This document shows positions 60,232 through 60,560 of a DNA stretch of 64,000 nucleotides, piece after piece. Position 1 is the stretch's first letter. Each line of letters opens with the position of its first letter. The notes under the pieces are model-generated. The model saw only the letters and a list, made by a program, of their open reading frames with translations, did not search any database and was not told where the DNA came from. The stretch is taken from NCBI RefSeq assembly GCF_003334305.1, contig NZ_QOWS01000009.1. The stretch is one strand, 5' to 3'. The stretch is from Escherichia coli. Its GTDB lineage: Bacteria; Pseudomonadota; Gammaproteobacteria; Enterobacterales; Enterobacteriaceae. Position numbers and translations under genes: made by a program.

Positions 60232-60560
60232 TTATAAATGTGTACAACGGGGATTATTTTTACATTGCATATTATTACCAGAAGCGACTGGAATACTAAG
60301 CACATCATAAAAATTATCATCACATGGTATATCTGAAACACACGAAAGCATACCTAAAGTTATACTGTATAAACAGGTGGCTAATCCCAAGGGGATCGAT
60401 TCCAGAAATCGGGTTCAACGGATACTGATAAAAATTCCACCTACCTTCCAGCCCAATCGGAGCCTGAGTGTTATACCGCCCCTGCTGCGGTTAATGTTAC
60501 CGATAATAGTTATAGTACAGCCCTGATTCATCATCATACTACTGCTGCGGCAGTCTGATG
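60232..60560 (-). pseudogene. degenerate Rhs core-end remnant with short C-terminal tip
   Basis: Minus-strand frame reads ...[82 protein letters not shown]; in-frame TAA just upstream and a 1-nt indel relative to the intact copies. Confidence 0.6.

What the first reader, a model, noticed from the sequence alone, without database searches (positions are those of the whole stretch)
60232..60560. Decayed third Rhs core-end with a short tip
The minus-strand reading frame reproduces the core-end motif ([17 protein letters not shown]...IPLGL) but is closed by an in-frame TAA just upstream and differs from the intact copies by a 1-nt indel. The 50-aa tail after the PLGL motif has four cysteines. It looks like an eroding stored module and dates the array as old and layered.
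Basis: seen in the sequence. Interest (0 to 1): 0.4.

Follow-up and report, generated by a model that had tools for sequence, protein, structure and literature searches.

The report
Dead Rhs toxin cassette in E. coli
This is the long-dead remnant of a displaced Rhs toxin cassette (a cell-wall-attacking Tlde1-type toxin plus its Imm57 immunity gene) that sits downstream of rhsA in most E. coli; it is real, but ordinary and already annotated as a pseudogene.

Summary
The window is the E. coli mtl / yibIH / rhsA region. Minus-strand 60384-60569 encodes the last ~59 residues of an Rhs core (TIGR03696, 53 bits against a cut-off of 32.5). It is broken by three, possibly four, in-frame stops and by a +1 T inside the DPxGL codons.

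The "short 50-aa tip" reading is wrong. The 49-residue tail has five cysteines, not four, and is only the first third of a ~150-aa toxin domain. A CAA>TAA change plus a 1-nt deletion at 60231-60234 cut it. The catalytic part (…HSCLNAFGPS…CSEGCIT…) continues in another frame to 59954, with a further TAG in this lineage.

An open version exists in E. coli 2014C-3075: 258 codons of core-end plus tip, then an intact Imm57 gene. That tip matches Pfam Tlde1, and its model matches L,D-transpeptidase folds. Homologous tips end full-length Rhs proteins elsewhere.

The downstream ORF (59428-59948) is the Imm57 immunity gene. A frameshift has removed its signal peptide.

The same lesions occur as exact sequence in about 2,900-3,400 complete E. 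coli genomes, so this is not a sequencing error. It is the oldest of three layered tips. RefSeq already annotates it as a pseudogene, and the cassette type is published. Low interest.

The parts
60384..60569 (-). Remnant of the last ~59 codons of an Rhs core, through the PxxxxDPxGL boundary. It begins 2-3 nt after the yibG stop codon (60572-60574). In-frame stops: TAG 60539-60541, TAA 60497-60499, TAA 60491-60493, and possibly TAG 60563-60565.
   Evidence: Translations. TIGR03696 at 53.3 bits and NF041261 at E 1.6e-22. 67% aa identity to the orphan-1 core-end. Alignment to the open allele.
60395..60395 (-). One extra T inside the Asp-Pro codons of DPxGL. It shifts the frame between the core-end and the tip.
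   Evidence: Alignments A1 and A4 against strains 23CRST032 and 2014C-3075. The exact 61-mer is present in 3219 genomes.
60232..60383 (-). It carries an in-frame 9-nt deletion between 60281 and 60280. It is ended by CAA>TAA (60232-60234) combined with a 1-nt deletion in the following A-run.
   Evidence: ORF list. Alignment to the open allele. Family alignment showing these residues belong to the conserved domain. The AF2 model places them as strands 1-3 of the fold.
59954..60231 (-). The remainder of the toxin tip, in a different frame: NRWPIPQGLWS*NVNDPGASNRKPDGIRLVPSVNTGTYNRNGFSIHSCLNAFGPSLGPRFCSEGCITGLSNDMQKLNELIFSEPDSTLTVTD*. It contains the His ... Ser-x-Gly-Cys catalytic motif. TGG>TAG at 60197-60199 is specific to a sub-lineage.
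   Evidence: Translation. The TAG allele is in 428 of 3490 carrier genomes.
59428..59948 (-). Imm57-family immunity gene. The ATG is at 59946-59948. A 1-nt deletion near 59925 (codon 9) separates the signal peptide from the body, leaving a 145-aa ORF (59428-59865) that starts at TTG.
   Evidence: An intact 173-aa version with an N-terminal hydrophobic leader exists in 2014C-3075. PGAP annotates it as "Imm57 family immunity protein, frameshifted" in K-12.

Best explanation
The feature is a pseudogenised orphan Rhs C-terminal toxin/immunity cassette. It is the oldest of three tips stacked downstream of rhsA by successive C-terminal displacement.

Ancestral function (inferred from the family, not measured here). 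The tip was fused through the PxxxxDPxGL boundary to a full-length Rhs shell protein. It would have been released at that boundary and delivered, most likely by a type VI secretion system, into the periplasm of neighbouring bacteria. There its Tlde1-type L,D-carboxypeptidase/transpeptidase domain would damage peptidoglycan stem peptides. The co-encoded periplasmic Imm57 protein would protect the producer.

Present state in this window. Nothing of this works:
- Only ~59 core codons remain, and they carry three or four stops.
- The tip carries a +1, a nonsense mutation plus a -1, an in-frame 9-nt loss and a further TAG.
- The immunity gene has lost its signal peptide to a frameshift.

The remnant is passively inherited DNA, shared almost unchanged by about two thirds of sequenced E. 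coli.
For: Shown here:
- Locus identity and RefSeq pseudogene annotation.
- The core-end HMM match.
- A base-by-base list of lesions against an open allele, which has a 258-codon open core-end plus tip and an intact 173-aa Imm57 in strain 2014C-3075.
- The frame-repaired tip hits Pfam Tlde1_dom at E 4.6e-5.
- The AF2 model of the open tip has pLDDT 90.7. Its top 25 PDB matches are all L,D-transpeptidase or L,D-carboxypeptidase folds, including Bd1075, LdtMt2, Pgp2, DpaA and Csd6.
- Imm57 scores E 1.9e-47.
- The tip family has 837 clusters. The domain sits at the extreme C-terminus, directly after DPxGL. Carriers include full-length Rhs proteins of 1300-1800 aa: P0040, P0044 and a Pseudoxanthomonas 1796-aa ORF followed by an Imm57-like gene with a leader peptide.
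- The lesions occur as exact sequence in 2933-3445 complete genomes.
- The same dead remnant follows a yibJ-type tip that is still fused to a full-length Rhs at another locus.

From the literature:
- The C-terminal displacement model (PMC2935791).
- Orphan rhs-CT/rhsI modules (PMC3150448).
- Tox-LD-peptidase paired with Imm57 and RHS repeats (PMC3482391).
- Rhs-DUF2778 fusions and the L,D-carboxypeptidase activity of Tlde1/Tae5 (10.1101/2020.02.18.954545; PMC9638812).
Against: - No enzymatic, secretion or expression data were produced. The ancestral mechanism is inferred from family membership.
- The Pfam hit on the repaired window sequence is modest (E 4.6e-5).
- The active-site motif reads H-x15-S-E-G-C-I, not the canonical (S/T)-H-G-C.
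- Tlde1a itself was not among the listed Foldseek matches.
- No full-length Rhs carrying this exact tip was seen among about 100 sampled rows of the 3686 E. coli hits. The tip's time as an active E. coli effector is therefore inferred, not observed.
- On the window branch, polarised substitutions in the tip (9 non-synonymous, 4 synonymous, 1 stop) are too few to demonstrate neutral evolution.
Confidence: 0.93

Rival explanations
1. One reading: a complete but short (~50 aa) cysteine-rich Rhs tip kept as a stored module.
For: A 52-codon ORF (60232-60390) exists and is Cys-rich.
Against: - In the open allele and in all 131 full-length family domains examined, these residues are the first third of a ~145-150 aa domain.
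- The terminating TAA is a CAA>TAA change next to a 1-nt deletion.
- The following ~90 codons, in another frame, still encode the conserved catalytic part.
- In the structural model these residues form strands 1-3 of a single fold.
Confidence: 0.02
2. Sequencing or assembly error in an otherwise intact gene.
For: Several lesions are single-base indels, one of them in an A-run.
Against: - The exact lesion-bearing 61-90-mers occur in 2933-3445 independently sequenced complete genomes.
- At least nine separate lesions would all have to be errors.
- RefSeq annotates the same pseudogene in K-12.
Confidence: 0.01
3. The toxin is dead, but the cassette is retained because the Imm57 remnant still gives orphan immunity against Tlde1-type Rhs toxins fired by competitors.
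For: - The Imm57 body is the best-preserved part: 93.5% identical to the open allele, with a 145-aa ORF open in this window.
- dN/dS is 0.32.
- An RpoD-binding site is reported near yibV in K-12 (PMC3946193).
Against: - The frameshift removes the leader peptide. A periplasm-acting toxin could then not be met by its immunity protein. This is an inference from the periplasmic action of Tlde1 (PMC9638812).
- The gene has been broken independently three times: a -1 in this window, an additional +1 in K-12, and a 5-nt deletion in 23CRST032. That pattern argues for relaxed selection.
Confidence: 0.04

Closest known systems
RefSeq/PGAP pseudogene downstream of yibG in E. coli K-12 MG1655 (SF31_RS26890, [quoted passage not shown]) and the adjacent frameshifted Imm57 gene (SF31_RS26585). 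From memory, these correspond to the K-12 names yibS/yibW and yibV.
   Same: It is the same locus and the same lesions. The two sequences differ at three positions across the aligned module: 60364, 60198, and a 1-nt indel at 59545.
   Different: The window allele has an extra TGG>TAG at 60198. It lacks the K-12 +1 A that truncates the Imm57 ORF to about 111 aa. The gene-name equivalence rests on memory plus the matching ORF length.
Orphan rhs-CT/rhsI modules and the C-terminal displacement model (Jackson et al. 2009, PMC2935791; Poole et al. 2011, PMC3150448)
   Same: - A piece of core, the DPxGL boundary, an A+T-rich tip and a small immunity gene lie downstream of a full-length rhs in the same orientation.
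- A homologous tip is fused to full-length Rhs in other bacteria.
- In-frame stops in retained core sequence are also described for a Yersinia orphan.
   Different: This copy is too damaged to be re-armed. The longest exact match to the other core copies in the window is 26 nt, and the tip itself is broken.
Tlde1a / Tae5 of Salmonella Typhimurium (STM14_0336) and the DUF2778 superfamily, including Rhs-DUF2778 fusions such as Shigella sonnei WP_052983304.1 (10.1101/2020.02.18.954545; PMC9638812)
   Same: - The Pfam PF10908 match and the L,D-transpeptidase-type fold.
- A His ... Ser-x-Gly-Cys-hydrophobic motif.
- Conserved cysteines compatible with disulfides.
- An immunity partner with a leader peptide.
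- Attachment to Rhs, which is reported for 11% of Tae7-family genomes.
   Different: - The motif is S-E-G-C rather than S-H-G-C, with His 16 residues upstream of the Ser.
- The immunity protein is Imm57, not DUF2195.
- No sequence-level hit to any solved structure was found.
- The window copy is a pseudogene.
Tox-LD-peptidase / Imm57 pairs predicted by Zhang et al. 2012 (PMC3482391)
   Same: The same toxin class, the same immunity family and the same association with RHS repeats in beta- and gamma-proteobacteria.
   Different: None in kind. The paper is a prediction from comparative genomics and does not discuss this E. coli remnant in the passages read.

Membership tests
Rhs core-end (TIGR03696 Rhs_assc_core / NF041261 RHS_core) | The profile HMM match exceeds the curated domain cut-off | tested here: met
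   53.3 bits against a cut-off of 32.5, covering profile positions 18-76 of 76. NF041261 matches positions 1203-1261 of 1261 at E 1.6e-22.
Rhs core-end (TIGR03696 Rhs_assc_core / NF041261 RHS_core) | A PxxxxDPxGL boundary motif separates the core from the variable tip | tested here: met
   The sequence reads P-L-N-P-I-S-G-I-D-[+1 nt]-P-L-G-L. The motif is recognisable but split by the inserted T at 60395.
Rhs core-end (TIGR03696 Rhs_assc_core / NF041261 RHS_core) | It is part of a continuous ORF that encodes the YD-repeat shell | tested here: not met
   Only ~59 codons remain, directly abutting the yibG stop codon, and they contain 3-4 in-frame stops. It is a fragment, not an Rhs protein.
Orphan rhs-CT/rhsI module (C-terminal displacement) | It lies downstream of, and in the same orientation as, a full-length rhs. 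It retains a core fragment, a tip and an immunity gene. | tested here: met
   Minus-strand order in the window: rhsA tip, then a 127-aa ORF, yibA, orphan-1 with yibG, then this remnant with Imm57.
Orphan rhs-CT/rhsI module (C-terminal displacement) | [quoted passage not shown] | tested here: met
   Metagenomic proteins P0040 (1385 aa) and P0044 (1570 aa), and a 1796-aa ORF in Pseudoxanthomonas sp. z9 (L007 1075-6465) at 53% identity, followed by an Imm57-like gene. None was seen in the sampled E. coli genomes.
Orphan rhs-CT/rhsI module (C-terminal displacement) | The tip and immunity reading frames are open, so the module could be re-armed | tested here: not met
   There are at least nine disabling or altering lesions in the window allele. 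Open versions exist in roughly 190 other E. coli genomes.
Tlde1 / DUF2778 (Pfam PF10908), L,D-transpeptidase superfamily | Profile HMM match | tested here: met
   The frame-repaired window tip gives PF10908 at E 4.6e-5 and YkuD PF03734 at E 0.023. PF10908 is precomputed for many relatives. PGAP names the open E. coli version "tlde1 domain-containing protein".
Tlde1 / DUF2778 (Pfam PF10908), L,D-transpeptidase superfamily | L,D-transpeptidase (YkuD-type) fold | tested here: met
   The AF2 model of the open allele has pLDDT 90.7 and pTM 0.87. The 25 best Foldseek PDB matches are all L,D-transpeptidases or L,D-carboxypeptidases, with probability up to 1.00 and TM 0.41-0.58. This was tested on the open allele, not on the broken window copy.
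Tlde1 / DUF2778 (Pfam PF10908), L,D-transpeptidase superfamily | Catalytic motif HXX14-17-(S/T)HGCh (PMC9638812) | tested here: inconclusive
   The tip reads H-S-C-L-N-A-F-G-P-S-L-G-P-R-F-C-S-E-G-C-I. His, Ser, Gly, Cys and the hydrophobic residue are present with suitable spacing. The second His is Glu here and in 52 of 131 family members.
Tlde1 / DUF2778 (Pfam PF10908), L,D-transpeptidase superfamily | L,D-carboxypeptidase or exchange activity on peptidoglycan, and periplasmic toxicity | not testable with these tools
   This requires expression and muropeptide analysis.
Imm57 (Pfam PF15596) | Profile HMM match, and position immediately downstream of a Tox-LD-peptidase tip | tested here: met
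   PF15596 at E 1.9e-47 over model positions 2-100 of 100. The start codon lies 5 nt after the tip's stop codon. The pairing is predicted in PMC3482391.
Imm57 (Pfam PF15596) | An intact gene with an N-terminal leader for export to the periplasm | tested here: not met
   The open allele starts MARLLTIVLFFSISANA (the leader was judged by eye, no predictor was run). The window allele is frameshifted at codon 9, so the 145-aa ORF lacks the leader.

The most novel reading that the evidence does not exclude
The Rhs-linked tips related to this remnant might form a distinct, uncharacterised branch of the Tlde1 superfamily. The family has 837 clusters at 50% identity. Its features are a Cys-rich N-terminal sub-domain, an H-x15-S-E-G-C-I active site in place of S-H-G-C, and Imm57 immunity. 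Its chemistry or substrate could differ from Tlde1a. The roughly 190 E. coli genomes with an open orphan copy could serve as a natural reservoir for studying re-arming of rhsA by recombination. The window copy itself would still be a dead relic.
Probability: 0.15. Interest if true: 0.3.

Novelty: already known. Interest (0 to 1): 0.12.

Why it matters
It matters little beyond tidy annotation. The result explains what a set of small K-12 pseudogenes and orphan ORFs downstream of yibG once were: a Tlde1-type peptidoglycan toxin and its Imm57 immunity protein. It also gives a clean worked example of three-layer C-terminal displacement at rhsA, and points to strains where the cassette is still open. 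It corrects the tempting misreading that a Cys-rich 50-aa ORF is a mini-toxin.

Tried and rejected
- **NCBIfam on the tips and immunity protein.** Scans of the repaired tip, the open tip and Imm57 found nothing. Only Pfam recognised them.
- **Sequence search of solved structures.** A profile search of the PDB with the family alignment found nothing at E <= 1. Only fold comparison linked the tip to L,D-transpeptidases.
- **Word-indexed protein search.** It returned only short fragments and no full-length Rhs. The exhaustive representative search was needed to find full-length carriers.
- **Scan of one genome per species.** The only Enterobacteriaceae relative found (Superficieibacter, 79% identity) is again an orphan, so no enterobacterial full-length ancestor was recovered. 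Shigella sonnei WP_052983304.1, cited in the literature, could not be examined.
- **Testing erosion by substitution direction.** The core-end shows 21 GC>AT against 9 AT>GC changes. This is suggestive only.
- **Testing erosion by outgroup polarisation.** Counts were 9 non-synonymous, 4 synonymous and 1 stop on the window branch, against 8 and 7 on the open-allele branch. These are too few to conclude anything.
- **Recoding or programmed frameshifting.** Considered and dismissed, because there are multiple stops, no start codon, and independent extra lesions in sub-lineages.

Full report
**Locus.** The window is E. coli chromosome: yibL, mtlR, mtlD and mtlA, then yibI and yibH, then the rhsA array on the minus strand.

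An 801-nt query centred on the finding matches 3687 of 5426 complete E. coli genomes, 3324 of them at 99% identity or better. In K-12 MG1655, RefSeq annotates the stretch as a pseudogene: [quoted passage not shown]. It lies between yibG (a sel1-repeat gene) and a frameshifted "Imm57 family immunity protein". From memory, these are the K-12 pseudogenes yibS/yibW and the small ORF yibV. The K-12 ORF length I derive, about 111 aa, is consistent with that.

**Checking the observation.** The minus-strand frame reads [55 protein letters not shown]. One base later it continues [10 protein letters not shown]...CTHL*.

The conceptual translation scores 53.3 bits on TIGR03696 (cut-off 32.5) and E 1.6e-22 on the RHS_core model. 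It covers exactly the last 59 positions of both. It is 67% identical to the core-end of the neighbouring orphan. The core-end is therefore real and not a chance match.

A TAG lies further upstream (60539-60541), and a possible fourth stop sits at the very edge of the homology. That homology starts 2-3 nt after the yibG stop codon.

The 1-nt indel is an inserted T at 60395 inside the Asp-Pro codons of DPxGL. The tail after PLGL is 49 aa with five cysteines, not 50 aa with four.

**What the "short tip" really is.** About 190 E. coli genomes carry a second allele of this module, 87-89% identical to the window in the tip.
- In strain 23CRST032 the tip is an open 135-codon ORF that PGAP calls "tlde1 domain-containing protein".
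- In strain 2014C-3075 the whole orphan is open. It has 258 codons running from core sequence through DPLGL into a 150-aa tip, followed 4 nt later by an intact 173-aa Imm57 gene. An ISEc1 element lies just upstream.

Aligning the window to this allele shows that the 49-aa tail is only the first third of the tip.
- The tail ends because CAA became TAA at 60232-60234 and one A of the following run was lost.
- The rest of the tip then continues in another frame down to a TAA at 59954-59956: NRWPIPQGLWS*NVNDPGASNRKPDGIRLVPSVNTGTYNRNGFSIHSCLNAFGPSLGPRFCSEGCITGLSNDMQKLNELIFSEPDSTLTVTD.
- There is also an in-frame 9-nt deletion between 60281 and 60280.
- TGG>TAG at 60198 is present in only 428 of 3490 carrier genomes. 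K-12 has TGG at this site.

**The immunity gene.** The gene starts at 59946-59948. A 1-nt loss near 59925 has cut off its leader, leaving the 145-aa ORF at 59428-59865.

K-12 carries an additional +1 at 59545, and 23CRST032 carries a 5-nt deletion. The immunity gene has therefore been broken independently at least three times.

**Identity of the toxin and immunity proteins.**
- The frame-repaired window tip matches Pfam Tlde1_dom (PF10908) at E 4.6e-5, and YkuD weakly.
- The repaired immunity protein matches Imm57 (PF15596) at E 1.9e-47.
- An AlphaFold2 model of the open tip, built on a 50-sequence alignment, is confident (pLDDT 90.7, pTM 0.87). It places the N-terminal "tail" as the first three strands of one domain.
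- Its 25 best PDB matches by Foldseek are all L,D-transpeptidase or L,D-carboxypeptidase structures. A plain sequence-profile search of the PDB found nothing.
- The active-site region reads H-x15-S-E-G-C-I. The published Tlde1/Ldt motif is HXX14-17-(S/T)HGCh (PMC9638812). The second His is Glu here and in 52 of 131 relatives examined.

**The wider family.** A profile search of 1.84 billion representative proteins finds 837 clusters at E <= 0.001.
- In 97 of 131 complete domains examined, the domain ends exactly at the protein's C-terminus. In the most common cases it begins with DPxGL.
- Carriers range from fragments to full-length Rhs proteins of 1300-1800 aa.
- Pseudoxanthomonas sp. z9 has a 1796-aa Rhs ending in a homologous tip (53% identity). 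It is followed by an Imm57-like gene with a hydrophobic leader.
- The only enterobacterial relative recovered outside E. coli, in Superficieibacter (79% identity), is again an orphan with an Imm57 gene.

**Literature.** All of this matches published descriptions.
- Zhang et al. 2012 predicted Tox-LD-peptidase toxins linked to RHS repeats with Imm57 immunity (PMC3482391).
- Sibinelli-Sousa et al. reported Rhs-DUF2778 fusions and showed L,D-carboxypeptidase activity and periplasmic toxicity for Tlde1/Tae5 (10.1101/2020.02.18.954545; PMC9638812).

**Layering and age.** The exact 90-mer holding the three stops occurs in 3445 genomes. The 61-mer with the +1 occurs in 3219, and the 61-mer with the TAA/-1 in 2933. 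These include K-12, BL21 and O157:H7. Sequencing error is therefore excluded, and the inactivation is shared by descent across a large part of the species.

In strain RIVM_C037884, at the rpmE-metJ rhs locus, a full-length 1409-aa Rhs ends in the yibJ-type tip. It is 98% identical to the window's 314-aa orphan-1. A yibG-like gene follows, and then the same dead remnant with the same lesions, 95.8% identical over 852 nt and cut by an ISAs1 element.

So the Tlde1 cassette was already displaced and dead when the yibJ/yibG cassette was the active tip. In the window, that cassette has in turn been displaced by the present rhsA tip. This is the sequence of events proposed in the C-terminal displacement model (PMC2935791) and for orphan modules (PMC3150448).

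**A qualification on "erosion".** Against the open allele, the window is 77% identical in the core-end, 89-91% in the tip and 93.5% in Imm57. The flanking genes yibH and yibA are 98.2% and 99.5% identical.

Yet dN/dS is only 0.18, 0.22 and 0.32 for the three parts, with dS of 0.82, 0.27 and 0.15. Most of the divergence between the two alleles therefore accumulated under purifying selection. The two are old or separately acquired functional alleles, and the erosion proper consists of roughly nine discrete lesions.

Two further tests were indecisive. GC>AT changes in the core-end number 21 against 9 AT>GC. Outgroup-polarised counts are too small to conclude anything.

Re-arming this copy is implausible. 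Its longest exact match to other core sequence in the window is 26 nt, and the tip is broken in any case.

**Verdict.** It is wrong on the key descriptive point, because the tip is not short. It is a truncated Tlde1-type toxin whose remaining two thirds and Imm57 partner lie just downstream.

The feature is an already annotated pseudogene of a published cassette type. Interest is low.

Noticed in passing
window 61045-61989 (-) and 60572-61033 (-); L010 2105-7378: Orphan-1 (yibJ-type) is an uninterrupted 314-aa ORF in this window, whereas K-12's copy is annotated with an internal stop. It is 98% identical to the C-terminus of a full-length 1409-aa Rhs at the rpmE-metJ locus of strain RIVM_C037884. 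There the yibG-like gene and the same dead remnant follow as one block, 95.8% identical over 852 nt.
   Followed up: partly
window 60197-60199: TGG>TAG in the catalytic half of the tip is a younger, lineage-specific lesion. The exact 61-mer is in 428 of 3490 carrier genomes, and K-12 has TGG.
   Followed up: yes
window 59428-59948; L001, L002, L003: The Imm57 gene has been inactivated independently in different alleles: a -1 at about 59925 in this window, an additional +1 A at 59545 in K-12, and a 5-nt deletion in 23CRST032. It is intact in 2014C-3075.
   Followed up: partly
window 59428-60569 against L003 6851-7992: Divergence between the dead and open alleles falls steadily along the module: 77% identity in the core-end, then 89%, 91% and 93.5%. 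It far exceeds that of the flanking genes (98-99.5%), with dS up to 0.82 but dN/dS of only 0.18-0.32. This fits old or separately acquired functional alleles. The gradient itself is unexplained.
   Followed up: partly
L008 and L009 (NZ_ASJB01000019.1, NZ_ASXG01000044.1): Two tiny contigs (330 and 258 bp) filed under Amycolatopsis orientalis are 99% identical to window 59845-60160. They are almost certainly E. coli DNA contaminating those assemblies.
   Followed up: yes
window 62978-63863 (-): The present rhsA tip (176-aa ORF beginning at [12 protein letters not shown]) overlaps a 127-aa ORF by 29 nt. PGAP names the equivalent ORF YhhH in strain 2014C-3075. Neither has an NCBIfam hit here, and the HEAT-repeat gene yibA follows. 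This rhsA tip differs from the K-12 arrangement, where yibA directly follows rhsA.
   Followed up: no
L003 5542-6678; L010 7523-8658: ISAs1-family (H-repeat type) elements sit immediately next to the module in other strains. ISEc1 lies just upstream of the open orphan in 2014C-3075, and a frameshifted ISAs1 truncates the remnant in RIVM_C037884.
   Followed up: no
K-12 equivalents of window ~59400-62900: A genomic-SELEX study lists RpoD holoenzyme sites between yibA and yibJ, between yibJ and yibG, and between yibV and yibU (PMC3946193). Parts of the orphan array may therefore be transcribed even though the cassette is dead.
   Followed up: no
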